Of a stretch of 64,000 nt of DNA, positions 1,963 to 45,031 are shown in pieces. Below the pieces are notes generated by a model. It was not told the origin of the DNA and made no database searches. It worked only from the letters and a program-made list of their open reading frames with translations. Positions within the stretch are counted from its first letter, which is position 1, and every line of letters starts with the position of its first letter. The position numbers and the translations under genes were made by a program. Source of the stretch: a virus; IMG/VR virus record IMGVR_UViG_3300008050_000019; one strand, given 5' to 3'.

Positions 1963-2301
1963 CTATCTCTTCGAGACTAAGCGAAGGATCGCGTTTATTC
2001 CAGCTGTCATTTTTCTGACACCTGGTGGGTTATCTGAGTGTACTTTTATAATCGGTGGTATGAAATCGCTTGTTGCTACTTGCTCTTCTATCCATAAGAT
2101 AACGTCATTGCCCGTGCCATGCACATCATCTCCAAGATCATGATCAAGTGATACTTCACTTACTTTCTCAGTCTTTAATAACTGTATTACGTCTTCTGGC
2201 CAACGACAAAGCGTGTAACCAGGTGGGCATTTACGTTTATCATCAAGGAAAAGTTTCATATCAACCATGTATATGGTATTACGATATGAAACTTTAAACA
2301 C
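1963..2301 (-). CDS. cREC-like (cyclic-phosphate processing receiver) domain protein
   Basis: MKLFLDDKR...SLDHDLG...GTGNDV...KVHSDNPPG matches the remembered signature of the RNA-repair-associated receiver family. The likely true start is MKLFLDD at about 2256. Confidence 0.55.
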   Translation of the reverse strand: MFKVSYRNTIYMVDMKLFLDDKRKCPPGYTLCRWPEDVIQLLKTEKVSEVSLDHDLGDDVHGTGNDVILWIEEQVATSDFIPPIIKVHSDNPPGVRKMTAGINAILRLVSKR

Positions 2302-2310
2302 ATTTTTTAT

Positions 2311-2976
2311 TCAAAAATAGGCTTTAGGAAATCTTTTTCTACCGTATGCTAACCAAACTTTCTTTACTCGTTCAATCATTTCATCTGTTAAAACAGGATC
2401 TATATCAAACTCTTTCATTTGGTGTCTAACGCTGTCAAACTTCTTGTTTAAGAAGTAAGACGCAGGTACTCTAGCAGTTTTTGCTTGCTTGTAGATGCCT
2501 GAAACAAATGCAGCAACCTCACCCTTGTCTAAAAGATAAGCTTCCGCTTGTTTTAGCGTTTTTCTTCCATGCTCATACTCTATATCCCAACCTTGTTGGG
2601 CAGTATGCTCTAACTCATGTCTAATAATAGATTTCAGTTCAGGAATAAGAAGTTCCATGTCATCAAACATGGAAGTTTGATCATCATGCCAATCTTCCGA
2701 CACATCTATATTTATGAGTATGGACTTCTTCCCGTCATTTGTATGTTGACCATAAGCACCACTTAGCACAGGAGCCTTACCAGGCTTTAATGATGAGGTT
2801 ACCACAACAAAAATCGCATCGACATTTTCAATGTCAGATTTAAGCTTAAAGACATTTTTTTTCTTGAGCTTATTTTTGTATATAACTTTTATTTTTCTGA
2901 CGATTTGCCTTGATATATGTGTCGTTTCATTCTCAAAACGACCCTCAAGAAGGCATTGCTTTAACTCAAAAGACAT
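2311..2976 (-). CDS. hypothetical protein with HExxH motif (possible zinc metallopeptidase)
   Basis: IRHELEHTAQ motif. There is no other recognisable signature. Confidence 0.4.
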   Translation of the reverse strand: MSFELKQCLLEGRFENETTHISRQIVRKIKVIYKNKLKKKNVFKLKSDIENVDAIFVVVTSSLKPGKAPVLSGAYGQHTNDGKKSILINIDVSEDWHDDQTSMFDDMELLIPELKSIIRHELEHTAQQGWDIEYEHGRKTLKQAEAYLLDKGEVAAFVSGIYKQAKTARVPASYFLNKKFDSVRHQMKEFDIDPVLTDEMIERVKKVWLAYGRKRFPKAYF

Positions 2977-3000
2977 ATATACTATGTATGGTACATAATG

Positions 3001-3369
3001 CTAACTATTGCAATAACCCTCGCAACAAACCAAATCTCCATTACAAATCTCTGGATAAATCTCAGTTGCTAGGCATAGCAGAACGCATTGCGACAGGTTA
3101 CCTGCGTCTGGTGGTCCGACGTCAACTGGATTAGCATCTAATGCTCCAGCGTCTATGAAGCCGGCGTCTATGAAGCCGGCATCAATGAAGCCGACGTCTG
3201 GCATACCCCCGTCATATAAAACTTCTCCAGCATCTGGCATTACACTTGCATCATAAAACCTGGTGGGTCTTTGGGCGGAAATTGCTGAGCTGCATCCCCT
3301 TGACCCACATTCATCACAGGCAGCTAAAGACAGAAGCGCAAGCGCCATAAATAATTTTCGTTTAAACAT
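3001..3369 (-). CDS. secreted lipoprotein with DAGFI repeats and Cys-rich C-terminus
   Basis: Signal peptide plus lipobox MALALLSLAAC. Three 15-nt tandem repeats at 3151-3195 encode (F)IDAG units. Confidence 0.65.
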   Translation of the reverse strand: MFKRKLFMALALLSLAACDECGSRGCSSAISAQRPTRFYDASVMPDAGEVLYDGGMPDVGFIDAGFIDAGFIDAGALDANPVDVGPPDAGNLSQCVLLCLATEIYPEICNGDLVCCEGYCNS

Positions 3370-3745
3370 TTTTTCCTCTAAACCTACTTTTTCCCAACAA
3401 GCGAACGCCTAAATAAGCAATCCCTGCTCTGTATTTGTCAACTTTATCAACCTTAACTAAGATTGAGTAAAAAATTATGTCACATTCTTTTCTAGATAAG
3501 AAATACTCGCTTCCGTCTTTATAAAGTCTGTTATCTGAGTAGAGATAATCATGAGCACATGTACCGATCTTAGCATCAATACCAAGAAAGTTTCTTAGCC
3601 ATTGTGGTCCAGCTGCACCATTCCAAGGAAATTTCTTTGGGATGGTTACTATTCGCTCATCAATGGCCAATTTCAATTCTTTTTGTAGAATAAACTTTTT
3701 ATTATTTAGCTTAGAGTACAAAAATTTTGATGCTACTATCTTCAT
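3362..3745 (-). CDS. DUF1353-like protein
   Basis: AHDYLY motif. The track start (GTG 3749-3751) overlaps tRNA-Arg, so ATG at 3743-3745 is preferred. Confidence 0.45.
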   Translation of the reverse strand: MKIVASKFLYSKLNNKKFILQKELKLAIDERIVTIPKKFPWNGAAGPQWLRNFLGIDAKIGTCAHDYLYSDNRLYKDGSEYFLSRKECDIIFYSILVKVDKVDKYRAGIAYLGVRLLGKSRFRGKNV

Positions 3746-3748
3746 ATA

Positions 3749-3822
3749 CACTCCCTAGTGGATTCGAACCACTGACCTTGAGCTTAGAAGGCTCCTGCGC
3801 TATCCAGCTGCGCTAAGGGAGT
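3749..3822 (-). tRNA. tRNA-Arg (anticodon TCT)
   Basis: Hand-folded cloverleaf: acceptor ACTCCCT/AGGGAGT, D arm GCGC-AGCTGGATA-GCGC, anticodon loop CTTCTAA, T arm AGTGG-TTCGAAT-CCACT. Confidence 0.85.
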
Positions 3823-4125
3823 AAATTGGCGCCACATTTAAAGCGCCTGCATATAGAATAGAATCATGTAATATACTACCGGGCCTATATACTCCCGGCA
3901 GGTAACCTGTATATGGTAAACTTGACATTGCCACGATTTATTATATGGCGACTTCTAAATGTCATGTGTCAAGCTCATTACATGATAATGATAAAGCTAT
4001 GGCTTTAATGTTCTAAGTCAGCGCATAATATTAACCCTCGTATTAAACTAATTGATTCCTCACGCTCAATCAGACGTTCGGCGTGTCGCAACCACAACAG
4101 CTGGCTAAGTAGCGTACTAGCCATA

Positions 4126-4210
4126 TGCTCAGAGCGGGAGTCGAACCCGCACTCCCATTAAGGGCGACGGATTTTAAATCCGTTGCGTCTACCAATTCCG
4201 CCATCCAAGC
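4126..4210 (-). tRNA. tRNA-Leu (anticodon TAA), type II with long variable arm
   Basis: Acceptor GCTTGGA/TCTGAGC, anticodon arm ACGGA-TTTAAAA-TCCGT, T arm GCGGG-TTCGACT-CCCGC. Confidence 0.85.
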
Positions 4211-4414
4211 TAATTTTCATTCAAGGTTATTTATTCCTTGTTAAAATATAATACCACCCTTTGAATTCAAAGATACTGTTATTTTTCATTAATTTAAATC
4301 AGTCAAGCTTTCTTAAACCAAGAAGCAGGAAATGGCATTCCCATACCCACTAAGCCATAATATACAGAACTGGCCTTGGTAGTTCAATCTTTATTATCTC
4401 ACCCATCTGTGTTC

Positions 4415-4720
4415 CTAAATGCTTTTATTCAAAGTAAATTCTGTCTGAGCAGGAAACACGATCGTTTTAATTCTGTAAGACTGATTCTTAAGTGTGTAGT
4501 TAACAACAGATAAACGGCCAGCAGACACTAATTCATTAACAAAGACAATCATTTTGTTTGCATCTAAGCCGCTAGGAAGAATAATATTTTCGTCATTCAA
4601 GTAATGTACTGAAGTGGATGCCAGCACTGTCAGTGTCATGGGTCCTTCTATGGTCACCTTATCAACCAAATAGTTTTTGAAATCGGCCTTTGTAAAAAAG
4701 GTACTCTTTTTTTTGTTCAC
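4415..4720 (-). CDS. hypothetical protein
   Basis: ORF track. The start abuts the 3' end of tRNA-Arg(CCT). Confidence 0.6.
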   Translation of the reverse strand: MNKKKSTFFTKADFKNYLVDKVTIEGPMTLTVLASTSVHYLNDENIILPSGLDANKMIVFVNELVSAGRLSVVNYTLKNQSYRIKTIVFPAQTEFTLNKSI

Positions 4721-4721
4721 A

Positions 4722-4795
4722 CGCCTCCTAGTGGACTCGAACCACCAACCTTAGGTTTAGGAAACCTACGCGCTATCCAATTGCGCCAAGGAGGC
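4722..4795 (-). tRNA. tRNA-Arg (anticodon CCT)
   Basis: Acceptor GCCTCCT/AGGAGGC, anticodon arm TAGGT-TTCCTAA-ACCTA, T arm GGTGG-TTCGAGT-CCACT. Confidence 0.9.
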
Positions 4796-4797
4796 AA

Positions 4798-4905
4798 TAT
4801 TCCAGCCCGGCTTTGAACCAGGATCTCTCTATTACGAGCGCTTTGACCGCTAAAAGATAAGCTAAGTAACCAAACTTCCGCCCATTCTTTTTTAAGCTAC
4901 TGGAT
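4798..4905 (-). other. tRNA-like element, unresolved (canonical T arm; possible degenerate, interrupted or pseudo tRNA)
   Basis: The T arm CCTGG-TTCAAAG-CCGGG is followed by CTGGAAT. The only 5' partner (AATCCAG, 1 mismatch) lies about 105 nt away. An internal hairpin AGCG-GTCAAAG-CGCT would give anticodon CAA. No standard cloverleaf could be folded by hand. Confidence 0.3.
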
Positions 4906-4911
4906 TACTGA

Positions 4912-4984
4912 TACGGCTGGGTGGAATTGAACCACCGACGTCCACCTTATAAGGATGGCGCTCTTACCCCTGAGCTACAGCCGT
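4912..4984 (-). tRNA. tRNA-Ile (anticodon TAT)
   Basis: Acceptor ACGGCTG/CAGCCGT, anticodon arm CCATC-CTTATAA-GGTGG, T arm GGTGG-TTCAATT-CCACC. Confidence 0.85.
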
Positions 4985-4989
4985 TTACT

Positions 4990-5382
4990 TTAAATGCTAT
5001 CTAAAACAGTTTGCATTTTATCTCGTACATCATCGAGCATTTCATCAATGGGGTCCATCTTCGCTCTAAGCTTATCATGCACCATCTCTTTAGCAGCTTC
5101 TTGTACATGGCGATCATAATCTCCAACCATCATGTCAACTATGTCAAGAAAGCGAAATGATTTCCCGTTAATAGTAAGCTCAACAGCAAAATTCCCGCCT
5201 TTCTCTTTTGCATCAAGAGCAACAGCTTCAACAATGCTTCTGTCTGCACTTATTAGGTTAAGAATTATTGTACCATACACGTTTTTGGAAGAACCTAGAA
5301 CGTCAATAGTACTAAAAGATTCTACACCATCTTTGTATGTAACATCAAAGGCTCTTTTAGTTTTACTTTTAATTTCTTCCAT
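4990..5382 (-). CDS. hypothetical protein
   Basis: ORF track, embedded between tRNA genes. Confidence 0.65.
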   Translation of the reverse strand: MEEIKSKTKRAFDVTYKDGVESFSTIDVLGSSKNVYGTIILNLISADRSIVEAVALDAKEKGGNFAVELTINGKSFRFLDIVDMMVGDYDRHVQEAAKEMVHDKLRAKMDPIDEMLDDVRDKMQTVLDSI

Positions 5383-5401
5383 CTTCTTTCTTTCTTTTAA
5401 A

Positions 5402-5474
5402 TGGGCCCAGAGGGATTCGAACCCCCGACAAAGGAGATATGAGCTCCCGACTCTAACCGCTGAGCTATAGGCCC
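5402..5474 (-). tRNA. tRNA-Met (anticodon CAT; an Ile2/lysidine type cannot be excluded)
   Basis: Acceptor GGGCCTA/TGGGCCC, anticodon arm GGGAG-CTCATAT-CTCCT, T arm GGGGG-TTCGAAT-CCCTC. No initiator hallmarks. Confidence 0.85.
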
Positions 5475-5538
5475 GTGTAATTTATTTTATATATTGTATT
5501 GCCTGATTATTATAACACAGTATATTTTCTTGTGTCAC

Positions 5539-5889
5539 TTATTTTTTTCTAAATTTCATTAGTTTTTTGTAATGATGCGCTTTGTGGGCGCAAACTAGTT
5601 TGGTGTGCTCGATTTTATCTTCGTACAAACCGTCAGCCTTCATAAGAAGCTCAAGTGTTACAGTAAGGTTGCTGCCAGAACCAACGCCAGATAGAAAAGA
5701 AGTAAATTTCACCAAGTTTTCTGCAGTTTGGTTAGTAGCTGGACATGAATAGTATGTATTAACTACAGCTTTAAGCAATCCAGTTCGCTGGGCATCATCG
5801 AGCAAGATAATTGGGCCTTTCGCAGCAATTCGAACTGCATAATCTTGCCAAGATTCAATGATCAATTTTGCTGTATTGGTCCACCGCAT
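5539..5889 (-). CDS. hypothetical protein
   Basis: ORF track. Confidence 0.6.
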   Translation of the reverse strand: MRWTNTAKLIIESWQDYAVRIAAKGPIILLDDAQRTGLLKAVVNTYYSCPATNQTAENLVKFTSFLSGVGSGSNLTVTLELLMKADGLYEDKIEHTKLVCAHKAHHYKKLMKFRKK

Positions 5890-5899
5890 ATAGTAATTA

Positions 5900-5925
5900 T
5901 ATCACGCATTAAATCATTTAACACA
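5900..5925 (-). promoter_or_regulatory. promoter-like motif instance (plus-strand TATCACG-N12-TAACACA)
   Basis: Lies 11 nt upstream of the 5889 start. Same motif family as the repeats at 36215-36412. Confidence 0.35.
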
Positions 5926-5939
5926 TAAAGTTTACTGTG

Positions 5940-6368
5940 TTAATACATTGATGTTAGTGTTTCATAATCGCCCTTTGCCAAAAGGTAAAGTCTGTATTCT
6001 TCTTCTGATAGAGAGCGATCATTAATGAAAAACTCTTTATAGGAGCCTGCAATTATAGCAGGCCCATCCGCTCTATGTAATAGGCCATCTTTATAATAGT
6101 GCATGTATATAATAGCTCCACTAATATTAACGTATCGTATACGTGCGGGACCGCCGAATCTATGTTTTAAACCATGTTTATAATAAACTACATCTTTCTT
6201 GGCACCAGACATATAATAAGCTGCGTATGCTGGGCCACTCTCCCTGTGTAAGGCCCCACGTTCATCGACGTACCTACATAAGGTTTCATGTTGGCGATGA
6301 ATAATTTGAGATTTCTCTTTACCAAGCATGTAAATTATATTAGCACAGAAAATTTTCCATTTACACAC
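5940..6368 (-). CDS. MORN-variant repeat protein
   Basis: Repeats HRESGPA, HRFGGPA, HRADGPA. The start may be the internal MLGKEK. Confidence 0.7.
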   Translation of the reverse strand: MCKWKIFCANIIYMLGKEKSQIIHRQHETLCRYVDERGALHRESGPAYAAYYMSGAKKDVVYYKHGLKHRFGGPARIRYVNISGAIIYMHYYKDGLLHRADGPAIIAGSYKEFFINDRSLSEEEYRLYLLAKGDYETLTSMY

Positions 6369-6403
6369 ATGATTAACGTAAGTTCAAGCTTAACAAATGC
6401 ATA

Positions 6404-6865
6404 ATGTTAAGTATAATTAGTAACATGATTATAGTCTGGGAAGTTATAACTGGTGAAAATCATAATATTTTCGCCAGGCAGGAAGATGCTATTTTATTAC
6501 ATGGTATAGTAAAGCATATGGTCACATCTAATGGAAAAGTTCCAGAGGGGTACCCTTTAAGTGTTAATGAAAAGCATATATTTGGTATAGAATCAATTGT
6601 GCTAATGACCAGTGTTGCAAGTGTTTTAGCAGATTGGATGATGAACATAAGCATTGATCAGATTGCTGTCGGGTTCGAGGATGCAGTCTGGCCCCCAGAT
6701 ACTCCTTATGCTGGATACCCAGTTTTCACAGATGCGGAAAAAACTAATATACAGATTGCACGTGCACAAAAAAAGCTGCTTTCATCAATTGATGAAAGTG
6801 AAAGACTTCTTTTATTCAATACAACATTAACGACTGCACAATTATTTGCAACTGGTAGTAATTAA
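6404..6865 (+). CDS. hypothetical protein (plus-strand island)
   Basis: ORF track. Its stop overlaps the start of 6865..8523 (ATG at 6865). Confidence 0.55.
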   Translation: MLSIISNMIIVWEVITGENHNIFARQEDAILLHGIVKHMVTSNGKVPEGYPLSVNEKHIFGIESIVLMTSVASVLADWMMNISIDQIAVGFEDAVWPPDTPYAGYPVFTDAEKTNIQIARAQKKLLSSIDESERLLLFNTTLTTAQLFATGSN

Positions 6866-8523
6866 TGGCAGCTATTGATTTTAATCTGCGATGTTTTCGA
6901 GGAAGCGGTGGCGTGCTCGATTATGATACCGCTTCAACTTCATTAATGACAGGTTCGGTCGTCAGTTGCTCAGTTGATATTTATAACCGCAACGGTTCAC
7001 TACTTGCAGGCCCATTTCACTCCATAAGTGGTTCCGTAACGAAGATTTCTGCAGGAGGAACAGACACTTGGACATTTGATCCCGCTCATGCAGACGTTAT
7101 TGCTTCTACTAGATTGTCACGCCAGTTCGACGAACACCTTAGGTTCCGATTCACTGAAACTGTTCCTAGTGCGTCGTCTGTTGCAGATGTATGGGTAACT
7201 GTTAACAATCAAGACAAAATAGCCAGCGATTATCCGAACAAAAAGTTATTTTGTGATGGTTTCTTCGGAGATAATAACGCAAGTTATGCTACTCCAGAAT
7301 TTGGTAATGCTTCAAAGCTCAACCCTACACGCCAAGTTCGTGAAATGAGTGCCATGGCACCAAGTATTGGATCAACCCATTATATGATTGTGAACCAGGT
7401 TTATGGTGTAAGAACAGATACATTCACAGGAGTAACATTCGAGGGTGATCCTCTAGGTGCAATTGTCGCACGGGGTGGAAACACGCTGTCGCTTGATAAC
7501 TGTTACTTTAAGAATATGGATCTTCGCGGATTTCTTGGAGGAACGTACGATGGAACGTTTACTGTTGATGGCGGAAAGTTACAGACGGGCTTTAAGCATG
7601 CAAATGGTGTTTTAACATGCGTCAATGAAGTTGGGCTTGAGGGAGATATTGACCTTCAATCAACTACAATAATGATTGGTGATGTTAAAGGGACCGCCGC
7701 TGTCATAGACTGCTCAGCACCTTTAACAGATCTTATTCTCGGTATCGATAAGGGTGATATTCAATTAGATAATTTGGATTCTGGCATGAATGTTTCTATA
7801 ACAGGTGTCGGTGGGACGTTAAAGCTTCCTGTCGGCAATGCAAATCCAGCCAGTGTTAAGGTGGGTGGGTATATTATCATAACAGATGACTCAGACGTTC
7901 CGTGGGATAATCAAAATAATATTGGCGGCTGCGAAATCACCGCTTCCGTTATTGCATCAAGAACGAACGTTTTGACAAATCTTCCTGCGCAACAAGGGCC
8001 AGGACAGTGGGACACTACAAGTTCGCTGACAACTTCAAGCATAGGAACAAGTGTTTGGAATTCGCTGACGTCCTCATTCAGTACATCTGGATCTGCAGGT
8101 GAAATTCTTATTAATAACTTTTTGCTTGCTGGTGAAACTGCGACGGCGATGTCAGGGACTGCTGCAGGTGTCTGGGATGCGTTAACATCATCATTTAATA
8201 TATCTGGATCTGCAGGTGATGCACTAATTAATAGCTATCTCTTTGCGTCAGGAACAGCAGAGGCATTGTCAGGTACGGCAGCTGATGTGTGGGCAGTTCA
8301 ATCATCATCACTTACCGTACCTGGTTCAACTGGTATGATGCTTACCAATATATCATCTTCTGTTAACTTTATCGAAGGGATAGAGGGCGGAAGGTGGAAG
8401 ATAATTAGTAACCAGATGATATTTTATGGTACTGACAATACGACTGAAATTGCTAGATTTAATCTACTTGATGACTTGGGAGCGCCAACTACAGCGTCGC
8501 CATTTGAAAGAGTAAGAACATAA
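6865..8523 (+). CDS. tail-fibre-like protein with three 39-aa C-terminal tandem repeats
   Basis: Three exact-period 117-nt repeats begin at 8053, 8170 and 8287 (VW..LTSSF..SGSAG..LIN..L.A.GTA.A.SGTAA). The fibre-like call is an impression, not a motif match. Confidence 0.45.
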   Translation: MAAIDFNLRCFRGSGGVLDYDTASTSLMTGSVVSCSVDIYNRNGSLLAGPFHSISGSVTKISAGGTDTWTFDPAHADVIASTRLSRQFDEHLRFRFTETVPSASSVADVWVTVNNQDKIASDYPNKKLFCDGFFGDNNASYATPEFGNASKLNPTRQVREMSAMAPSIGSTHYMIVNQVYGVRTDTFTGVTFEGDPLGAIVARGGNTLSLDNCYFKNMDLRGFLGGTYDGTFTVDGGKLQTGFKHANGVLTCVNEVGLEGDIDLQSTTIMIGDVKGTAAVIDCSAPLTDLILGIDKGDIQLDNLDSGMNVSITGVGGTLKLPVGNANPASVKVGGYIIITDDSDVPWDNQNNIGGCEITASVIASRTNVLTNLPAQQGPGQWDTTSSLTTSSIGTSVWNSLTSSFSTSGSAGEILINNFLLAGETATAMSGTAAGVWDALTSSFNISGSAGDALINSYLFASGTAEALSGTAADVWAVQSSSLTVPGSTGMMLTNISSSVNFIEGIEGGRWKIISNQMIFYGTDNTTEIARFNLLDDLGAPTTASPFERVRT

Positions 8524-8536
8524 AGACGTAATCTCC

Positions 8537-8614
8537 AGGCTCACTCCTGATAAACCGGATATTTTATAATATAACCCCTTATTTTAATAAGGCCGGTTTA
8601 TCAGGAGTGAGCCT
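8537..8614. repeat. Hairpin repeat element, copy 2 (22-bp arms 8537-8558 / 8593-8614, 34-nt loop)
   Basis: AGGCTCACTCCTGATAAACCGG and its exact reverse complement. The loop is nearly identical to copy 1. It sits between convergent genes. Confidence 0.85.
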
Positions 8615-8651
8615 AGAAACAACCATGACACTTCATGATTAAAGGCAGGAA

Positions 8652-8960
8652 TCATTTATAATTATCAATGATAAATTGCTGCTGTGCGTACATCATTGAT
8701 TTAAGGCTACGGATATGTAATTCATATCGCTCTATTGTAGCCTCAACAATCTTTATAGGCGGAATGACGTCAATTTCAACTTCAACTCCCCGATCATATG
8801 CAGGGTCACCTCTGTAGGTGTATCCCTCTATGACATCGTCTATATAACAATCTTCAGATTCTTTGTAAAGAGAGGCATCGCCTGGATGAATCCAAGCATA
8901 CTCCCAGTCGACCGGACCAGAGCGAGAATTAACTTTGTAGCGTGTCCACACTACAGCCAC
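8652..8960 (-). CDS. hypothetical protein (GTG start)
   Basis: ORF track. Confidence 0.6.
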   Translation of the reverse strand: MAVVWTRYKVNSRSGPVDWEYAWIHPGDASLYKESEDCYIDDVIEGYTYRGDPAYDRGVEVEIDVIPPIKIVEATIERYELHIRSLKSMMYAQQQFIIDNYK

Positions 8961-9109
8961 TCATCACGAGTTGACGCAAATCTATCACGGTTTCTATAAA
9001 CCCACGCCTCAGCCTTTCTAACTCTTCTAAGGCCTAGCCAATTAGAAGCATCGTGTAAGCCAAATGCCGATATCCCTGTAAGGGTAAGGATGGTAAGAAA
9101 AATAGTCAT
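8951..9109 (-). CDS. small membrane protein (52 aa, below track cutoff)
   Basis: Hand translation MTIFLTILTLTGISAFGL.... GGAG lies 5 nt upstream of the ATG. The stop overlaps the start of 8652..8960. Confidence 0.35.
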   Translation of the reverse strand: MTIFLTILTLTGISAFGLHDASNWLGLRRVRKAEAWVYRNRDRFASTRDEWL

Positions 9110-9135
9110 AAAATCTCCAGTGAGTTGTTAACTCG

Positions 9136-9384
9136 TTAATGGGCAGCTTTGTTTGGTGCTAATTTGCAACACTGACGTGCCCTGTAGTTAAGGATATGAA
9201 CCCCAAATTTAGAATAAACCCAATGCACGTATGAGGTGGGCTCACCTCTAGCAGCATAGGATGAGGGTGGCAAAGCGTTTCGTAAAAGAACAATAATAAC
9301 ATCACCTTCACTAAAGAAGGCTTGCTTATACATGAACCGTTTCTGGGGTGTGAGGACTGCCCCAACTTCGAATGTATTACTCAT
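9136..9384 (-). CDS. hypothetical protein (GD[VLI] small-protein family?)
   Basis: ORF track, FSEGDVIIV motif. The alternative-frame ORF 9159..9365 is rejected. Confidence 0.5.
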   Translation of the reverse strand: MSNTFEVGAVLTPQKRFMYKQAFFSEGDVIIVLLRNALPPSSYAARGEPTSYVHWVYSKFGVHILNYRARQCCKLAPNKAAH

Positions 9385-9677
9385 GTCATGCCATCAAACA
9401 TAGAAGCAAATTTACTGTAATTTGCAATAACCCAATCACATGAATTAACCCAACCAGCAGGCGTTTCATAAACCTCATCAGCCCAGGGGTTTAAATACGT
9501 CAATAAAAAGATTGCTACGCCATGCTCAAAAGGTATTCCAGCATCTTTCCAGTCACGTTTGTATGAATAGCACTTATCAGCATGGCAACTTACTATACCT
9601 GGACATCGATTAAAGTCGCCGCCAGCTAGACTTAAAAAAGCAGGAAAATTTCTATCGAGCCATTTGTAGTGATTCAT
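9381..9677 (-). CDS. hypothetical protein
   Basis: ORF track, 4-nt overlap with the downstream gene. Confidence 0.6.
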   Translation of the reverse strand: MNHYKWLDRNFPAFLSLAGGDFNRCPGIVSCHADKCYSYKRDWKDAGIPFEHGVAIFLLTYLNPWADEVYETPAGWVNSCDWVIANYSKFASMFDGMT

Positions 9678-12829: not shown

Positions 12830-14218
12830 TTACCAAAGATCTTCTGAAAATAAATTTGGCGGGTGAGCCAGACTAAAAATCTGCTTTCCTGCGAGAGCTA
12901 TAATACCTGCCTCTTTACGATCTACGTACGTGCCACCGACTGTAACGAATCCTTGTCTTGGGCCGTGTAGTCTAGTCGTGTCTATACCCTTAGCATGCAT
13001 ATAATGGAGAATATTATGATGCCTGTTAGGCTGCGGAAGTGACCATACTTTTCCCGTCTCGTCTTTCACAGCAGCTTGCTTAATCATTGCAGCGCCCAAT
13101 AAGAGACGGAGCGCGGGCAGCTTTATATCATATTCAATTACTTTACGACGAATGTCTGCACCCACCTTATCTCCTGTAAAATGTGCCATTAACAATGGAA
13201 ACAGCTTCGGTTGTGCATAACTCTTCAGCGTATTAGCTAACTCTCCGCGTGTCCATGTATTATCATATAACACAGAAAAATCTGCAAGTGCATTGTCAAT
13301 GAGTGCCTTGTTTTCTTTGCGCATCTTGCAAATTGCGCTAAATGTTGGCTCGATGAAGTCAACGACTTCCCAATCATGTCCTGCAGCATACATATATGCA
13401 CTTAGCTTCTCTAAAGTGTCGATTTTATGTATTATGCAAAGTTCTTTGATATATTTTGGTGTTGCCTTCGAACGAAGATGGTGAAGTCTCATATACCATG
13501 AGCTTTTGAACTTCATCAATGTTACAGTACCAGCGGGACCTATCGCCCAGCCTACGACACCCTCAGAGTCATCAAATTCTCTGACGTCAGATTTTATCTT
13601 TTGAAGATCACCAGATAGTGTCTCATTGATTACAGGCGTTTTAATACCTGCATCACGAAAAAGCTCATCGCATAACCGAACTTCAAGAGCATCTCCATCC
13701 CATTTTACGCGAGCAAGACCCACGAGATCATGTTCATTGTACTTTATAATAATTCTATTTGAAGGTCCGACATACTCAAAAAGCATTGAACCCTCAGAAG
13801 ACCATGATGGGTCAAGAAGTAAAGGATACTTGGCAAGCACTTTTTCAACGCCCTTAGAAACATTCTCAGCCAGCACTTCACAGCCCCGTGTTCTAAAGTT
13901 GACGAGGCCGTCGATTACTGAGCGGATTATTAATGATCCGTCAAGCTTCTCTGGCAATATAACATTACCTGCAGCATGATAAGTATCAAACTCTTTATCA
14001 AGAGTAGGCCTTTCAGTGTAGTTGAAAAACTTTGGAAACCCAGAGGAAAGTATCGTTCCATCAGGGCGAGTCATGACAGAACGAAGGTGATATTCGTCTG
14101 GACCCCATTCGTGCATCACCTTATGTGGAACAATTACAACAACATCACCGATACCAGGAATGTGGCGGTTGTTTGTATAAAATCTTGACGTATCAATATT
14201 TGGTATATTTATCTTCAT
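12830..14218 (-). CDS. Rnl1-like RNA ligase with about 130-aa C-terminal extension
   Basis: Nucleotidyltransferase motif I EKLDGSL, motif IV EGVVGW, motif V MKFKSSWY. The track start (TTG at 14251) lies inside a hairpin, so ATG 14218 (MKINIP) is preferred. Confidence 0.6.
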   Translation of the reverse strand: MKINIPNIDTSRFYTNNRHIPGIGDVVVIVPHKVMHEWGPDEYHLRSVMTRPDGTILSSGFPKFFNYTERPTLDKEFDTYHAAGNVILPEKLDGSLIIRSVIDGLVNFRTRGCEVLAENVSKGVEKVLAKYPLLLDPSWSSEGSMLFEYVGPSNRIIIKYNEHDLVGLARVKWDGDALEVRLCDELFRDAGIKTPVINETLSGDLQKIKSDVREFDDSEGVVGWAIGPAGTVTLMKFKSSWYMRLHHLRSKATPKYIKELCIIHKIDTLEKLSAYMYAAGHDWEVVDFIEPTFSAICKMRKENKALIDNALADFSVLYDNTWTRGELANTLKSYAQPKLFPLLMAHFTGDKVGADIRRKVIEYDIKLPALRLLLGAAMIKQAAVKDETGKVWSLPQPNRHHNILHYMHAKGIDTTRLHGPRQGFVTVGGTYVDRKEAGIIALAGKQIFSLAHPPNLFSEDLW

Positions 14219-14253
14219 CGTTGGACCGAGTATTATTATAACTCGGTCCAACG
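14219..14253 (-). promoter_or_regulatory. 13-bp GC-rich stem-loop abutting the RNA ligase start codon
   Basis: CGTTGGACCGAGT / ACTCGGTCCAACG with a 9-nt loop and no U-tract. It lies between the stop at 14270 and the ATG at 14218. Confidence 0.45.
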
Positions 14254-16134: not shown

Positions 16135-16350
16135 TTAATATACAAAATCTGCCGTTAAAAAAACTGTTTCTTCTAAGATAAAGAAATTGGCAGGCGAGCC
16201 CAAATAAAGCATGCAACTTGGGTTCACCAATCTTACGTCCCATGGAAGCTTTGCATATTTTCTGAAGAGTGTATCATGTGAATCATGTGAATTGGGTGAC
16301 ATGTACAGGGACTCCCGTGGTATGAATAAATCGCCGAACTTCAAAGACAC
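16135..16350 (-). CDS. GDL-family small protein (GTG start preferred)
   Basis: VSLKFGDLFI aligns with the N-terminus of paralogue 15762..16088. The track ATG at 16392 would overlap the deaminase gene by 52 nt. Confidence 0.45.
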   Translation of the reverse strand: MSLKFGDLFIPRESLYMSPNSHDSHDTLFRKYAKLPWDVRLVNPSCMLYLGSPANFFILEETVFLTADFVY

Positions 16351-16661
16351 AGTCGCACCTTCAGCCCCCTCTTTCGAATTTGCATACAACAAATCCTACA
16401 AGGCTCTATTGGCGCGCACACTCCATCAAGCGTCCACCTTAAAATCTCGATGATATCGCCCTTTTTCGCTAATGGCAAAACACACGTCTCTGCATGCCTT
16501 GTCTCAGTCCGATACCCTTTGAACAAGGGATGCGTTTGTGACGTATTAACACCAATGCTTATGGGCGTCCGCTTTCTCCATAGAATTGCTGCGATATGAT
16601 ATATTTGACCATTCGCTAATGCTAACTGTTTAGCATTTTTATAGATTGATGGATATCTCAT
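16341..16661 (-). CDS. cytidine/dCMP deaminase-like zinc protein
   Basis: HAE ... PCRIC (H-A-E and P-C-x-x-C zinc-binding pair) with typical spacing. Confidence 0.55.
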   Translation of the reverse strand: MRYPSIYKNAKQLALANGQIYHIAAILWRKRTPISIGVNTSQTHPLFKGYRTETRHAETCVLPLAKKGDIIEILRWTLDGVCAPIEPCRICCMQIRKRGLKVRLCL

Positions 16662-17584
16662 TACTTAAAGTCTTTTATGACGCCAGATTTAAGGCCTTGT
16701 GTGAATTTAGAAAAATAATCCTTAGGGTAATCTGCTACTGCATCAATAACATTTTCGTATGCAAATTCTCTCCACCACCCAGACGTTATGCTTGTACAGA
16801 CTTTTGATAGAGCAAGCATCCAAGCTTGTCTCTCAGACAAAACGCCCGGGTGCGGTACCAAGCTTCTTTCGATCGCTAATACTGCTGATTCTTCGATCAC
16901 GGATGCAAGCTTCAGGTCATTCGTTAAAGCATCAAACTTACTCTTATCAACAGCAACCTCTTGCCCATCTTTCTGGAAAAAAGTATATGCAGGGCGATTA
17001 TATAGCTTGACTGCGTCATGAATAGAATCATGGTCGTATTTATAATCAATCTGATCACGATTGAAGAATGCTTTTTTACTTTTATCTAGCGAGGGGAGAG
17101 GGTAGTTATACGTCTCTTTTTCTCGCAATTTTATAAAATCTACGTGTTCTGATTTAACAGTGGCTCCCATCGCCTTCATAAAATGATAGTGATGGACTGT
17201 TTTCCAAAAATGAGGATTATCTTTAAGATAACGATGAGATGACTTTAACGCAAACAGAAGGTCAATGCTTGGAACAAGCCCAAAGTCAGTTTGAAAAGAT
17301 GCTGTATCATTCTTAACAAGAGAATGAAGCATGCGCGAACTCTCTCTCTTAGAGACTAGCTCAAACTCAAGATTAACAGTGCCTTGAACTATCAGATTTC
17401 TCCCTAGGTGCAAATACACTTTTCTTGGTTTGATTGCACTTCTATTTTCTTCAATAAAATATCTTGCATCACTTTCTGTGCCGACAAAGTCAAAATCAGC
17501 ATCGTCTCGAATTTTAAATCTTTGTGATCTTAAAGCAAGGGCACGACTACCAACTAAAATTAGATTAGCAAACTTGTGAGGCAT
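16661..17584 (-). CDS. hypothetical protein (weak GS...DxD nucleotidyltransferase-like pattern)
   Basis: LVGSRAL...DDADFDFVG near the N-terminus. The NTase idea is speculative. Confidence 0.6.
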   Translation of the reverse strand: MPHKFANLILVGSRALALRSQRFKIRDDADFDFVGTESDARYFIEENRSAIKPRKVYLHLGRNLIVQGTVNLEFELVSKRESSRMLHSLVKNDTASFQTDFGLVPSIDLLFALKSSHRYLKDNPHFWKTVHHYHFMKAMGATVKSEHVDFIKLREKETYNYPLPSLDKSKKAFFNRDQIDYKYDHDSIHDAVKLYNRPAYTFFQKDGQEVAVDKSKFDALTNDLKLASVIEESAVLAIERSLVPHPGVLSERQAWMLALSKVCTSITSGWWREFAYENVIDAVADYPKDYFSKFTQGLKSGVIKDFK

Positions 17585-20908: not shown

Positions 20909-20980
20909 TATGATCAGAGGGACTCGAACCCTCAACATACCAGCCTGTAGTGCTGGGCTCTACCATTGAGCTATGATCAC
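20909..20980 (-). tRNA. tRNA-Val (anticodon TAC), non-canonical details
   Basis: Acceptor GTGATCA/TGATCAT, anticodon arm CCAGC-ACTACAG-GCTGG, T arm GAGGG-TTCGAGT-CCCTC. C rather than U at position 33 and no clear nt 26 in the hand fold. Confidence 0.7.
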
Positions 20981-24093: not shown

Positions 24094-24242
24094 CTGTCAT
24101 CGAACAAGCTATATGCCGTGATATCTTTAGAGCAATCATTGAATTCGTAACGAACAAATGACGTATATGCTGAGCCTGCTGCATAACCAGCTGGCACAAG
24201 CACGATGCTAAGCAACATGAATATTATTGTGTTATGACGCAT
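24060..24242 (-). CDS. small secreted protein
   Basis: Signal-peptide-like IIFMLLSIVLVPAGYAAG. Preferred over the alternative-frame ORF 24017..24199. Confidence 0.4.
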   Translation of the reverse strand: MRHNTIIFMLLSIVLVPAGYAAGSAYTSFVRYEFNDCSKDITAYSLFDDRWFCPAWKNRR

Positions 24243-24705
24243 TCGGCACCTGCAAAAGAAATGCTTCTACGTCATCAAGGAGTTCAAGATTTATGGCATA
24301 ATACTCGTCACACTCAGGTTCGATACTGTCAACCATAGCATCATAATCGCCACAATCATCGCATGTCCAGTTAACAAACTGTCCATAAAATCTATTATTT
24401 TGATGTTTTTGATACTTTGACAAAACAGAGCAAAGGATAGAGAGGGCTCTTTTTGATGCTGCAGTATTAACTATAGCTAAACCAGATTTAAGTACATCTG
24501 CCCTTAGATGGTATCTATTGTCTATCCACTGTGCCCACCCGCCATTAGTAACTTGGTAATTCATATGCCCAATAGACACTACATACTGATCAGGTATGGG
24601 TAATGCACCAATAAAATCAGTGTATGGCTTGCCTTTTAAATCACCGCTTGACCAACGAGTATGTGCAGTGTCCATTGCTTCCTGCATCTTCCTATAGTTT
24701 TTCAT
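24232..24705 (-). CDS. hypothetical protein (DMP19/DUF4375-like NGGWAQW motif)
   Basis: YQVTNGGWAQWIDN resembles the NGGxxQ(F/Y) signature. Weak. Confidence 0.5.
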   Translation of the reverse strand: MKNYRKMQEAMDTAHTRWSSGDLKGKPYTDFIGALPIPDQYVVSIGHMNYQVTNGGWAQWIDNRYHLRADVLKSGLAIVNTAASKRALSILCSVLSKYQKHQNNRFYGQFVNWTCDDCGDYDAMVDSIEPECDEYYAINLELLDDVEAFLLQVPNAS

Positions 24706-34866: not shown

Positions 34867-36171
34867 TTACTCCGTTACTTCATTGTCTTCAGCAGTTTCG
34901 GTTGCCGGTTCAGCATCACCGTCAGTAAGAAGGTGCTTTTTTGCTAGGTCTGCGATGCCGGGCATCTTTTCCCCGATCTTTGTCGTAGCCAACATCCGCA
35001 TAAAGTGTGGACCGGCTTCAGGGTAGAAAACCTTGGCGTTGTTAAGGCTCGAGTTAATGATGCCGTTGAATAGTACAAAGCTAATTTCATCAGGTAATGT
35101 CTTCATTACGAATGCAAGGTTCTTTGCTTGCGGAACCGTTAGAGCGAGATCATCTTTCTCAACGTAAGCATTAAGCTTGTCTACAAGCGAAACAGACTCT
35201 TCTGGACGCAGTGCCTTAATTCTCTTCTCAGCGCGGTGCGCATCCTTAAGTAGCTCCTCAGGAGTGAGGATTGCATCTTGTTGCTCCATGAATTGGCTAA
35301 ATGCTCGAGCTGGAGTCGCACCGACGAAGCCCTTCATTACAGCATAAATAATATCCGGTTGTTGATCGATAAGACGACCTAGATTTCCGCGATTACGGAT
35401 AAGATGGTCACTTACCTTATGCCAGGAACGACGAGATGGTGTAATTTCCGTAGCATCCATCTGGGCCGCTTTTTCTGGTTTAACTTCAAAATGGCCTTCA
35501 TTACACTGCGAAATAAAGTCAATGACTTCATTACAAACCCACTGATTTCCGTACATCTCTCTTTGCTCATCGGTCATCCCTTCAGATGAGCGGCCCCAGT
35601 CCGTCCAATCTTTGAGATCAGGTTCAAGATCTGCAACCCAGAACCGATCGATGAATGCAGGATCCATCTGCGTAACATTATACTCCTTAGAGAAATTTAC
35701 AGCTGCGATGATCCGTGTTCCTTCATGGACCGTACGCCCATTTAGGCGGCCTTTCTCAACAAGCTCGAATGCAGCATTCTGCACTTCAGGTGTGCCACGG
35801 TTAATTTCATCAAGAAATAGTACGCAAGGCCGAAGTTGAGCCTCGAGAAACCAGTCAGGTGGAAGAAATTTCGTAACACGAAACCCACCAAGCTCCTCGT
35901 CATACTCAGACATCATCATTTGTTCGGACGTTAGGCCATCCTTAGGTGACTTTACCGCACCCCTGTCAGGAAGACCAATAATATCACCCTCGCTTAGCTG
36001 CGATACACGGCGTTCAATAACCGGAAGATTACCCCAAACCCGCGCCATTTGATAAGCAATTGCTGATTTACCGATTCCATGGGCCCCACGAATAAGTGCC
36101 GATTGGCGAGTGTCAAGAAATTTAAGTGCGTCAACCAGTCCACGGACTGTATAAGAAGATACTGCTGCCAT
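34867..36171 (-). CDS. MoxR/AAA_5-type AAA+ ATPase
   Basis: Walker A GAHGIGKSA, Walker B plus MoxR-type VLFLDEINRGTPEVQNAAFELV. Confidence 0.85.
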   Translation of the reverse strand: MAAVSSYTVRGLVDALKFLDTRQSALIRGAHGIGKSAIAYQMARVWGNLPVIERRVSQLSEGDIIGLPDRGAVKSPKDGLTSEQMMMSEYDEELGGFRVTKFLPPDWFLEAQLRPCVLFLDEINRGTPEVQNAAFELVEKGRLNGRTVHEGTRIIAAVNFSKEYNVTQMDPAFIDRFWVADLEPDLKDWTDWGRSSEGMTDEQREMYGNQWVCNEVIDFISQCNEGHFEVKPEKAAQMDATEITPSRRSWHKVSDHLIRNRGNLGRLIDQQPDIIYAVMKGFVGATPARAFSQFMEQQDAILTPEELLKDAHRAEKRIKALRPEESVSLVDKLNAYVEKDDLALTVPQAKNLAFVMKTLPDEISFVLFNGIINSSLNNAKVFYPEAGPHFMRMLATTKIGEKMPGIADLAKKHLLTDGDAEPATETAEDNEVTE

Positions 36172-36980: not shown

Positions 36981-37155
36981 CTTTCTTTTTCTCGTCTTTA
37001 TTTTTGTTTTCTGGCCAATAACCTTTCTCTTTAAGAACTGACACGCTAAACTTTACTGTTTCAGTTGCTGCGTCTAACGCGACCTTTACAACAAAAGTCT
37101 CTGCTGCCTTTACAGCAAGCTTTTTTGCTAAATCGCCGAAAATAACATTAAGCAC
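36970..37155 (-). CDS. hypothetical protein
   Basis: ORF track. Its start overlaps the sigma gene stop by 8 nt. Confidence 0.45.
   Translation of the reverse strand: MLNVIFGDLAKKLAVKAAETFVVKVALDAATETVKFSVSVLKEKGYWPENKNKDEKKKDEK

Positions 37156-43212: not shown

Positions 43213-45031
<1,819 letters not shown>

What the first reader, a model, noticed from the sequence alone, without database searches (positions are those of the whole stretch)
12830..14253. Rnl1-like RNA ligase with an unexplained C-terminal domain; scattered RNA-repair-associated genes
Motifs I, IV and V (KLDGSL, EGVVGW, KFKSSWY) indicate an Rnl1-type ligase. The last 130 aa or so (...GKVWSLPQPNRHHNILHYMHAKGIDTTRLHGPRQGFVTVGGTYVDRKEAG...) match nothing I recognise. 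The window also contains a cREC receiver-domain protein (1963..2301), a family I remember as linked to cyclic-phosphate RNA repair, along with a deaminase-like protein and the tRNA island. No Pnkp-type kinase/phosphatase partner is visible. The extra domain or a neighbouring gene may therefore supply the end-healing activity against a host anticodon nuclease.
Basis: partly seen in the sequence, partly recalled or inferred. Interest (0 to 1): 0.5.

Follow-up and report, generated by a model that had tools for sequence, protein, structure and literature searches.

The report
RNA ligase fused to Arn.3-like domain
A marine jumbo-phage gene encodes a complete T4-type tRNA-repair ligase with one copy of a widespread phage domain of unknown function (the T4 Arn.3 family) fused to its end, and this rare fusion is the first clue that the domain works in nucleic-acid end repair.

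Summary
The ORF is real. It lies on the minus strand at 12830..14251; the true start is ATG 14218, giving 462 aa. The identical protein occurs in five independent assemblies, including a 308,593-bp contig.

Residues 1-377 are a full Rnl1-type ligase. All nucleotidyltransferase motifs are present, as is the helical C-domain that T4 Rnl1 uses for tRNA.

Only the last 85 aa (378-462) are extra, not about 130. They are not unrecognisable: they belong to Pfam PF26092 (T4_Y16D), the T4 Arn.3 family. This family has at least 11,000 sequence clusters, is almost entirely viral, is usually an 85-aa standalone protein, and has no known function. Its predicted fold (pLDDT 92) matches no solved structure.

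The fusion is rare:
- None of 92 Rnl1 homologues carries it.
- None of 83 related Rnl1 loci has an Arn.3-like domain within 10 kb.

Standalone Arn.3-like genes nevertheless recur near RNA-repair genes (Pnkp, Rnl1, Thg1-like, cREC) and near NAD/ADP-ribose genes (NADAR, NadR-like).

cREC at 1963..2301 is confirmed. The window has no Pnkp-type kinase or phosphatase.

The Arn.3 domain cannot be a kinase, and it co-occurs with full Pnkp elsewhere. It is therefore at most an accessory end-processing module. Its chemistry is untested.

The parts
12830..14218 (-). Whole gene: Rnl1::Arn.3-like fusion protein, 462 aa plus stop codon (start ATG 14218; the TTG at 14251 listed by the ORF finder is probably not used)
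   Evidence: (identical 462-aa product called in five assemblies)
13469..14218 (-). Rnl1 nucleotidyltransferase domain (about aa 1-250). Motif I is K91 in EKLDGSL. E148, E219-G220 (motif IV) and K236/K238 (motif V) are invariant across 74 clade members
   Evidence: pLDDT above 90
13088..13468 (-). Rnl1-type all-helical C-terminal domain (about aa 251-377), the counterpart of the T4 Rnl1 tRNA-specificity domain
   Evidence: phrog_562 to profile position 356 of 377; T4 Rnl1 residues to 355 of 375; homologues end at aa 365-388; Foldseek to 2c5u_A over 378 columns
12833..13087 (-). Arn.3-like domain (PF26092 T4_Y16D), aa 378-462. It starts at Met378 with MIKQAAV, like the N-terminus of standalone members. 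Motifs: NRHH, QGFVT, DRKEA, GKQ, and LFSEDLW at the extreme C-terminus
   Evidence: phrog_839; pLDDT 92
14223..14249 (-). Perfect 11-bp-stem hairpin (loop TATAATAAT) ending 2 nt upstream of the start codon. Either a terminator for the upstream gene or a translational element; its role is unknown
   Evidence: 0 of 100 shuffles give a match
1963..2301 (-). cREC (cyclic-phosphate-processing receiver-like) protein, a predicted RNA-end or ADPr cyclic phosphodiesterase. It is the probable end-healing component present in the window, 10.5 kb from the ligase
   Evidence: PF20274, 93 bits; cREC recurs in 16 of 83 loci of this Rnl1 clade; PMC7824862
3748..5474 (-). tRNA island: Arg-TCT, Leu-TAA, Arg-CCT, Ile-TAT, Met-CAT

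Best explanation
Shown.
- The gene encodes a complete, apparently catalytically competent T4 Rnl1-type RNA ligase (aa 1-377: adenylyltransferase domain plus helical tRNA-specificity domain).
- It is joined in frame to one copy of the Arn.3/T4_Y16D domain (aa 378-462).
- The junction looks like the loss of a stop codon between an rnlA gene and a downstream arn.3-like gene. The extra domain begins with Met-Ile-x-x-Ala-Ala-Val, as free-standing members do.

Inferred from established T4 biology. The ligase part seals 3'-OH/5'-PO4 breaks in tRNA anticodon loops made by host anticodon nucleases. It works through the lysyl-AMP, then AppRNA, then phosphodiester pathway.

Inferred from context; weakest step. 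The Arn.3-like domain is a small accessory module of nucleic-acid end repair. It is a two-layer alpha/beta fold with conserved polar residues (His, Arg, Gln, Ser-Glu-Asp). This set of residues is of the kind used by metal-independent phosphoryl-transfer enzymes. I propose that it binds or cleans an RNA terminus or a nucleotide-derived adduct before or after sealing. Candidates are a 2',3'-cyclic, 2'- or 3'-phosphate, or an AMP or ADP-ribose cap.

It is not a substitute for Pnkp. The 5'-kinase step must come from elsewhere, either from the 244 kb of the genome not seen here or from the host. Cyclic-phosphate opening more probably falls to the cREC protein at 1963..2301.
For: Ligase identity and completeness.

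Identity of the extra domain:
- Precomputed Pfam hit to PF26092.
- phrog_839.
- hhalign to T4 Arn.3: probability 97.2%, E 3.5e-11.
- Profile search placing the domain at P0001 377-462.
- All family-invariant residues retained.
- Confident model: pLDDT 92, pTM 0.82.

Links to RNA repair:
1. The fusion itself.
2. Phage pT24: Pnk, then an Arn.3-like gene 4 bp downstream, then a hypothetical gene, then a homing-endonuclease-like gene, then RNA ligase.
3. L137: Pnkp, Thg1-like, RNA ligase (PF09414), Rnl1, SNF2, Arn.3-like, ASCH.
4. L108: Rnl1 0.8 kb from an Arn.3-like gene, with cREC 3.9 kb away.
5. L047 and L062/63: Rnl1 1.7-2.7 kb away, with a Pnk-type kinase next to it.
6. Thg1-like genes 3.4-3.6 kb away in FLC9-like jumbo phages.
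7. TROVE/Ro60 4.6 kb away in L096.

Counts: over 131 non-redundant Arn.3 loci, Rnl1 is within 10 kb in 7, and 5 of those are within 3.3 kb. That is about 4 per Mb. In the phage database the figure is roughly 0.24 per Mb (543 records in 2.3 Gb), but the two counts used methods of different sensitivity.

Nucleotide/NAD context: NADAR abutting or within 1.5 kb in 5 clusters, NadR-like within 1 kb in four loci (two non-redundant clusters), a fusion to dATP/dGTP pyrophosphohydrolase, and copies in ART-bearing polyvalent proteins.

Precedent from my own knowledge: Rnl1-type ligases fused to end-healing modules exist (fungal and plant Trl1; baculovirus ORF86).
Against: - From the ligase side, the link is exceptional. 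None of 92 sequence homologues carries the domain. None of 83 related Rnl1 loci has an Arn.3-like domain within 10 kb, while 35 have a Pnk-type kinase and 16 have cREC. The three closest relatives' neighbourhoods also lack it.
- About 95% of Arn.3 loci show no RNA-repair gene nearby. Neighbourhoods are very diverse, typical of early or accessory regions.
- In T4 and Acj61 the gene sits in the arn operon or in a DNA-modification cluster.
- The pT24 adjacency may partly reflect old synteny with topoisomerase II genes.
- The fusion is seen in a single phage lineage only (100% identical copies), so its persistence under selection is not shown.
- The Arg of RHH and the terminal SEDLW motif degenerate in polyvalent-protein repeats.
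- The distance statistics rest on single-digit counts.
Confidence: 0.45

Rival explanations
1. Incidental fusion of two independent functions. The Arn.3-like domain is a general counter-defence or host-takeover module, for example an inhibitor of a host nuclease or a binder (sponge) of a nucleotide signal, NAD or ADP-ribose derivative. It happened to lie downstream of rnlA and became fused by loss of a stop codon. It does not act on the ligase's substrate.
For: - The fusion occurs in one lineage only, and the domain starts with the native Met-Ile N-terminus.
- The family is overwhelmingly standalone, with at least 11,048 clusters.
- It occurs in 3-5 tandem copies in giant polyvalent proteins carrying ART-PolyVal.
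- In T4 it lies in the operon with the anti-McrBC gene arn (bioRxiv 10.64898/2026.06.19.733364).
- Neighbours include Acb3, NADAR and NadR-like genes.
- None of 83 Rnl1 loci has it.
Against: - RNA-repair genes recur close to it in at least six independent lineages, including a gene abutting Pnkp and a full repair island.
- Residues are strongly conserved in a pattern typical of catalysis or specific ligand binding.
Confidence: 0.3
2. The extra domain is the end-healing enzyme that replaces Pnkp in this phage: it converts 2',3'-cyclic phosphate/5'-OH breaks into ligatable ends.
For: - No Pnkp-type kinase or phosphatase in the 64-kb window.
- About 40% of related Rnl1 loci have a Pnk-type kinase within 7 kb, and this one does not.
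- The conserved His/Arg/Glu set could support phosphoesterase chemistry.
Against: - No P-loop, so no 5'-kinase. No DxDxT (HAD) and no paired HxT/S (2H) motifs (sequence).
- It co-occurs with bifunctional Pnkp in pT24, L137 and T4.
- 244 kb of the genome were not examined.
- cREC is present in the window and is the more usual partner in this clade.
Confidence: 0.1
3. A non-catalytic RNA- or tRNA-binding add-on that alters the substrate specificity of the ligase. It may be a derived, zinc-less relative of the cytidine-deaminase fold that grips an anticodon-loop base.
For: - The strand/helix order (beta-beta-alpha-beta-beta-alpha) equals the deaminase core, with the conserved motifs at the two helix N-termini.
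Against: - There is no sequence relationship to deaminases, including the one in the window.
- T4-type Rnl1 already has its own tRNA-specificity domain, and it is present here.
Confidence: 0.08
4. The C-terminal region is simply the normal Rnl1 C-domain and there is no extra domain.
Against: - Residues 378-462 match PF26092/T4 Arn.3.
- Homologous ligases end at aa 365-388.
- T4 Rnl1 is fully accounted for before residue 380.
Confidence: 0.01

Closest known systems
Bacteriophage T4 RNA ligase 1 (RnlA, gp63; PDB 2C5U, 5TT6, 9DO4)
   Same: - Same two-domain layout: adenylyltransferase domain plus helical C-domain.
- The clade profile aligns to T4 residues 49-355 (E 9.4e-30).
- Foldseek aligns 378 columns to the 375-residue structure.
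- Motif I Lys and the motif IV and V residues are conserved.
   Different: - Only about 21-25% identity.
- Far below NCBIfam's equivalog cut-off: 54.7 against 242 bits.
- Carries an 85-aa C-terminal Arn.3-like domain that T4 Rnl1 lacks.
- Genomic setting differs: no adjacent pseT.
T4 Arn.3 (gene arn.3, Y16D_BPT4; Pfam PF26092 T4_Y16D; phrog_839)
   Same: - The C-terminal 85 aa are homologous to T4 Arn.3 residues 57-152 (hhalign probability 97.2%).
- The motifs AA(I/V), RH, QGF, R-x-EA, GQ and the terminal SEDL(W/Y) are shared.
   Different: - T4 Arn.3 is a free 152-aa protein with its own N-terminal region, encoded in the arn operon.
- Here the domain is covalently attached to a ligase.
- The function of the family is unknown (bioRxiv 10.64898/2026.06.19.733364, June 2026).
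Multifunctional tRNA ligases with fused end-healing modules (fungal and plant Trl1 LIG-KIN-CPD; baculovirus AcNPV ORF86 ligase-kinase-phosphatase)
   Same: - An Rnl1-type ligase domain with further domains fused to its C-terminus.
- Trl1 ligase domains are the next-best structural matches after T4 Rnl1.
   Different: The fused modules there are a P-loop kinase plus a 2H or HAD phosphoesterase. The domain here has none of their motifs and an unrelated fold. The comparison with ORF86 rests on my own knowledge.
Phage Rnl1 + Pnk-type kinase + cREC gene sets (predicted RNA-repair systems of Iyer, Burroughs, Aravind and co-workers)
   Same: - The window has Rnl1 and cREC.
- Related Rnl1 loci carry kinase-cREC gene pairs (PMC7824862, PMC9503650).
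   Different: - In this window no kinase was found.
- cREC is 10.5 kb from the ligase and sits next to an HExxH protein rather than a kinase.
- The Arn.3-like domain is not part of those described systems.

Membership tests
Rnl1 (T4 RnlA-type ATP-dependent RNA ligase) | Covalent nucleotidyltransferase motifs, with the motif I lysine (KxDG) and the motif IV (EG) and motif V (KxK) residues | tested here: met
   EKLDGSL (K91), E219-G220 and K236/K238 align to T4 K99, E227-G228 and K240/K242. They are invariant in 74 clade members.
Rnl1 (T4 RnlA-type ATP-dependent RNA ligase) | Match to Pfam RNA_lig_T4_1 (PF09511) above the gathering score | tested here: met
   34.6 bits against a cut-off of 28.3, E 2.3e-8.
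Rnl1 (T4 RnlA-type ATP-dependent RNA ligase) | Rnl1-specific all-helical C-terminal domain (tRNA specificity in T4) | tested here: met
   The profile aligns to T4 Rnl1 up to residue 355 of 375. phrog_562 is matched to profile position 356 of 377. The AF2 model has helices at 240-381 with pLDDT above 90, and Foldseek covers the whole of 2c5u_A.
Rnl1 (T4 RnlA-type ATP-dependent RNA ligase) | NCBIfam equivalog TIGR02308 score above the curated cut-off (same function as T4 RnlA) | tested here: not met
   54.7 bits against 242.25. This is a divergent clade, so it is a family member but not an established equivalog.
Rnl1 (T4 RnlA-type ATP-dependent RNA ligase) | ATP-dependent sealing of 3'-OH/5'-PO4 RNA, with preference for broken tRNA anticodon loops | not testable with these tools
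   Needs biochemistry.
Arn.3 / T4_Y16D (PF26092) | Significant match to the family model and to T4 Arn.3 itself | tested here: met
   Precomputed PF26092 hit on the exact protein. hhalign to T4 Arn.3: probability 97.2%, E 3.5e-11. Profile hit at E 1e-23 over aa 377-462. The tool's own Pfam copy lacks this model.
Arn.3 / T4_Y16D (PF26092) | Conserved motifs: AA(I/V), (R)H, QGF(V)T, R-x-EA, GQ, and C-terminal (L)FSEDL(W/Y) | tested here: met
   All invariant columns of 50- and 51-sequence alignments are present in the window protein.
Pnkp-type end-healing enzyme (kinase + HAD phosphatase), as a reading of the extra domain | P-loop GxxxxGK(S/T) kinase motif and DxDxT HAD phosphatase motif | tested here: not met
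   Neither motif occurs in aa 378-462 (sequence). Searches seeded with T4, pT24 and L137 Pnkp, and an HMM of 24 clade kinases, find nothing in this ORF.
2H phosphoesterase (cyclic phosphodiesterase), as a reading of the extra domain | Two HxT/S motifs in a duplicated fold | tested here: not met
cREC (PF20274), for ORF 1963..2301 | Match to cREC_REC above the cut-off, with receiver-like acidic residues | tested here: met
   93.2 bits against 27, E 1.6e-26. The LFLDD and SLDHD acidic motifs are visible. Enzymatic activity is only predicted in the literature (PMC7824862).

The most novel reading that the evidence does not exclude
The Arn.3/T4_Y16D family (at least 11,000 clusters, including a T4 gene whose function has never been found) is a new, structurally unprecedented class of small metal-independent enzyme that acts on nucleic-acid termini. 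It might remove a 2'- or 3'-phosphate, open a cyclic phosphate, or strip an AMP or ADP-ribose cap from RNA or DNA ends so that polynucleotide ligases can seal them. This would explain three things at once: its fusion to Rnl1, its placement next to Pnkp, DNA ligase, Thg1-like and cREC genes, and its recurrent pairing with NADAR, NadR-like and ART domains.
Probability: 0.25. Interest if true: 0.75.

Novelty: new variant of a known kind. Interest (0 to 1): 0.5.

Why it matters
Arn.3 is encoded by T4, the best-studied phage, and by thousands of other phages, yet it has no assigned function or recognisable fold. A natural fusion to a tRNA-repair ligase, together with several repair-island neighbourhoods, narrows the search to a few defined substrates (RNA ends with specific phosphate or nucleotide adducts). 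These can be tested with standard oligonucleotide assays and with T4 genetics.

If the domain proves to be an end-processing enzyme, it would add a new step or a new enzyme class to phage RNA repair and to the contest with host anticodon nucleases or nucleic-acid ADP-ribosyltransferases.

If it proves unrelated, the ORF is simply a divergent Rnl1 with an incidental passenger domain.

Tried and rejected
1. Nucleotide search of the region against 50,697 phage records found no match. The phage has no close sequenced relative.
2. The tool's Pfam copy gave no hit for the C-terminal 80 aa. The family name came only from precomputed annotations.
4. The AFDB Foldseek library was unavailable. BFVD returned only uncharacterised family members.
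5. The 'putative polynucleotide kinase' annotation of the homologue in Acinetobacter phage Lazarus is isolated among 205 records and was not relied on.
6. A combined MAFFT alignment of ligases and Arn.3 proteins misaligned the short sequences. The full-length model therefore has a low-confidence C-terminus, and no inference was drawn on how the domains pack.
7. A search for the same phage in IMG/VR found nothing.
8. Fusion partners of other Arn.3 proteins (P0176, P0190, P0206, P0212, P0236, P0238 and others) gave no Pfam hits. None is an Rnl1.
9. The literature has no functional data for arn.3. The 2016 RNA-repair survey by Burroughs and Aravind is not held in the library.
10. The rest of the 308-kb contig could not be read, so the absence of Pnkp, RtcB, 2H or KptA from the genome is not established.
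Full report
**1. The observation**

The minus-strand ORF 12830..14251 is real. Its mechanical TTG start lies inside a perfect 11-bp hairpin (14223..14249) that ends 2 nt before an ATG at 14218. The product from that ATG (462 aa, P0001) is exactly the protein called in five independent assemblies. These include a 308,593-bp ENA contig and two JGI marine samples. The window is therefore part of a marine jumbo-phage genome with no close sequenced relative. The genome carries rIIA/rIIB, a DNA ligase, a GroEL-like chaperonin and a sigma factor.

**2. The ligase part**

- Pfam RNA_lig_T4_1 is matched above its cut-off.
- PHROG 562 ('RNA ligase and tail fiber protein attachment catalyst') is matched over aa 48-367, covering profile positions 49-356 of 377.
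- A profile of 74 members of this ligase clade hits T4 Rnl1 (2C5U) at E 9.4e-30 over T4 residues 49-355 of 375.
- The invariant columns of that alignment include the motif I lysine (K91 in EKLDGSL), E148, E219-G220 and K236/K238. These align with the T4 active-site residues.
- An AlphaFold model has pLDDT above 90 from residue 1 to about 381, with helices filling 240-381. Foldseek aligns it to T4 Rnl1 over 378 columns, followed by fungal Trl1 ligase domains.
- Homologous ligases end at P0001 positions 365-388.

Residues 1-377 are thus a whole Rnl1, including the C-domain that gives T4 Rnl1 its tRNA preference (the latter from the literature on T4 Rnl1, my own knowledge). The protein is divergent. 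It scores far below NCBIfam's equivalog cut-off.

**3. The extra domain**

Only residues 378-462 are additional. They match phrog_839 and the precomputed Pfam family PF26092 'T4_Y16D'. tblastn hits include genes annotated arn.3. A 50-sequence profile aligns to residues 57-152 of T4 Arn.3 with probability 97.2%.

The family has sharply conserved motifs: AA(I/V), (N)RHH, QGFVT, GRFVDRKEA, GQ, and LFSEDL(W/Y). The last motif usually forms the very C-terminus. All are intact here.

- A whole-library profile search finds 11,048 clusters at E ≤ 1e-3. Most are free-standing proteins of 82-120 aa.
- With one peptide pattern, only 14 loci were recovered from 185,579 species genomes, so the family is essentially viral.
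- With a family alignment, AlphaFold gives a confident model (pLDDT 92, pTM 0.82) with the order beta-beta-alpha-beta-beta-alpha and a short C-terminal helix.
- A June 2026 preprint states that the functions of arn.1 to arn.4 are unknown.

**4. How common the fusion is**

It is very rare.

- None of 92 Rnl1 homologues (41% identity or less) carries PF26092.
- None of the top 150 or 120 Arn.3 family hits other than P0001 is a ligase.
- None of 80 IMG/VR loci of this ligase clade extends past residue 380.
- None of 83 such loci has an Arn.3-like domain within 10 kb.
- Three related phages that share the MVP-like, DUF7275 and ATPase genes have a plain Rnl1.

The domain starts at Met378 with MIKQAAV, the typical N-terminus of free-standing members. 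There is no obvious ribosome-binding site upstream. This points to fusion of two adjacent genes by loss of a stop codon.

**5. Evidence for a functional link to RNA repair**

From the Arn.3 side there is recurrent, minority evidence.

- In Tenacibaculum phage pT24 the order is Pnk, Arn.3-like (4 bp downstream), a hypothetical gene, a T5orf172 gene, then RNA ligase.
- In metagenomic locus L137 the order is Pnkp (HAD_PNKP + AAA_33), Thg1-like, RNA ligase (PF09414), Rnl1, SNF2, Arn.3-like, ASCH.
- In L108, Rnl1 lies 0.8 kb from an Arn.3-like gene and cREC lies 3.9 kb away.
- In L047 and L062/63, Rnl1 lies 1.7-2.7 kb away, with a Pnk-type kinase beside the ligase.
- FLC9-like jumbo phages have a Thg1-like gene 3.4-3.6 kb away.
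- L096 has TROVE/Ro60 nearby.

Over 131 non-redundant loci, Rnl1 occurs within 10 kb in 7, and 5 of these are within 3.3 kb. That is about 4 Rnl1 genes per Mb. The phage database gives roughly 0.24 per Mb (543 of 50,697 records). This comparison is crude, because the two counts used methods of different sensitivity.

A second recurrent theme is nucleotide/NAD metabolism:

- NADAR abuts the gene or lies within 1.5 kb in five clusters.
- NadR-like genes lie within 1 kb in four loci (two non-redundant clusters).
- An ATP-dependent DNA ligase overlaps the start of the gene in one lineage.
- There are fusions to a dATP/dGTP pyrophosphohydrolase domain.
- Three to five tandem copies occur in giant polyvalent proteins carrying ART-PolyVal.

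Most loci, however, show only small unannotated early-type genes. In T4 and Acj61 the gene sits in the arn operon or in a DNA-modification cluster.

**6. End healing in this phage**

No Pnkp-type kinase or HAD phosphatase, RtcB or 2H enzyme was found in the window. This rests on Pfam for 41 selected ORFs, mostly the larger ones, plus precomputed annotations, and on Pnkp-seeded and clade-kinase HMM searches of the six-frame translation. The one marginal P-loop hit is RadA/Sms-like.

cREC (1963..2301) is present beside the tRNA island. In the 83 related ligase loci:

- A 135-195-aa Pnk-type kinase lies within 7 kb in 35.
- cREC lies within 8 kb in 16.
- The kinase usually lies directly upstream of cREC.

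This supports the published prediction that cREC is a cyclic-phosphate-processing partner of RNA ligases (PMC7824862, PMC9503650). In the window, the gene upstream of cREC is instead an HExxH protein. Whether a kinase lies in the 244 kb not seen is unknown.

**7. Mechanism**

Shown: an intact Rnl1 plus an intact Arn.3-like domain in one polypeptide.

Inferred from T4: the ligase reseals tRNA broken by host anticodon nucleases.

Inferred from context, weakly: the Arn.3-like domain is an accessory of end repair. Its most widely conserved polar residues are one His at the N-terminus of helix 1, an Arg at the N-terminus of helix 2, Gln, and Ser-Glu-(Asp). Residues of this kind are used by metal-independent phosphoryl-transfer enzymes. 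This fits a role in trimming or uncapping an end. No fold match supports it.

The domain cannot be the kinase. It co-occurs with full Pnkp in pT24, L137 and T4, so it does not generally replace Pnkp. The main rival is that it is an independent counter-defence module and the fusion is incidental.

**8. Comparison and novelty**

The ligase is a new, divergent member of the Rnl1 family. The extra domain is a member of a catalogued but uncharacterised family. The combination is, as far as these searches reach, unique. Overall this is a new variant of a known kind.

Its value lies in giving the Arn.3 family a concrete, testable hypothesis. I score interest at 0.5. The most novel reading is that Arn.3 is a new class of nucleic-acid end-processing enzyme. 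I give this reading about 0.25 probability and an interest of 0.75 if true.

Noticed in passing
window 30704..36171 (-): A major-vault-protein-like ORF (858 aa; MVP_shoulder E 3.8e-19, Vault_3) is followed by a DUF2201 metallopeptidase/VWA protein and an AAA_5 (MoxR-like) ATPase. A related phage (L093) also encodes the MVP-like protein, about 6 kb from its Rnl1. A phage-encoded vault-like/VWA/MoxR set is unusual and may be an RNP or RNA-quality-control system.
   Followed up: partly
loci L192-L271 (e.g. L225 +3475/+3921, L208, L235, L257 relative to Rnl1): In this Rnl1 clade a 135-195-aa Pnk-type P-loop kinase lies within 7 kb of the ligase in 35 of 83 loci, and cREC within 8 kb in 16 of 83. 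The kinase gene usually lies directly upstream of cREC. This looks like a split end-healing module in which cREC takes the place of the HAD phosphatase domain of Pnkp.
   Followed up: partly
window 14223..14249: A perfect 11-bp inverted repeat (GGACCGAGT...ACTCGGTCC core, loop TATAATAAT) lies 2 nt before the ligase start codon. It occurs once in the window. It is not followed by a T-run.
   Followed up: partly
window 2311..2976 (-): A 221-aa protein with an HELEH (HExxH zincin-like) motif lies directly upstream of cREC, where related phages have a Pnk-type kinase. It has no Pfam, PHROG or NCBIfam match.
   Followed up: partly
window 16341..16661 (-): A minimal 106-aa cytidine-deaminase-fold protein has intact HAE and PCxxC motifs, but its Pfam score is below the cut-off. 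It lies next to a DUF7277/DUF7275 protein (16661..17584), which also recurs near the Rnl1 of a related phage (L092).
   Followed up: partly
locus L137 (Ga0184615_10000875) 2383..9482: A compact RNA-repair island: Pnkp (HAD_PNKP + AAA_33), Thg1-like 3'-5' polymerase, RNA ligase (PF09414), Rnl1, SNF2 helicase, Arn.3-like, ASCH.
   Followed up: partly
proteins P0288, P0290 (locus L095 1619..2350); P0143, P0144, P0146, P0149, P0199, P0251: Other architectures of the Arn.3-like domain. One is an N-terminal dATP/dGTP pyrophosphohydrolase (PF04447) fusion. Another is 3-5 tandem, partly degenerate copies inside 1,240-3,544-aa polyvalent proteins, one of which carries ART-PolyVal. Some members have N-terminal transmembrane segments (P0103, P0190, P0238).
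   Followed up: partly
window 24232..24705, 29431..30264, 37148..37999, 39667..41532, 42534..43199, 43213..44874, 45074..45898, 48415..52311, 56223..57035: Other gene content:
- DMP19-like (DNA-mimic family) protein
- RadA/Sms-like ATPase
- sigma-70-type factor
- secreted protein with seven MopE-type metal-binding repeats plus VWA
- Nudix hydrolase
- GroEL-type chaperonin
- FEN/5'-3' exonuclease
- a 1,298-aa ORF with no family match
- a protein with a weak NMN-adenylyltransferase-like N-terminus
   Followed up: no
window 20909..20980 (-): A lone tRNA-Val(TAC) lies between the rIIA gene and a small ORF, about 15 kb from the five-tRNA island. No tRNA-Lys (the classical PrrC target) is encoded in the window.
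   Followed up: no
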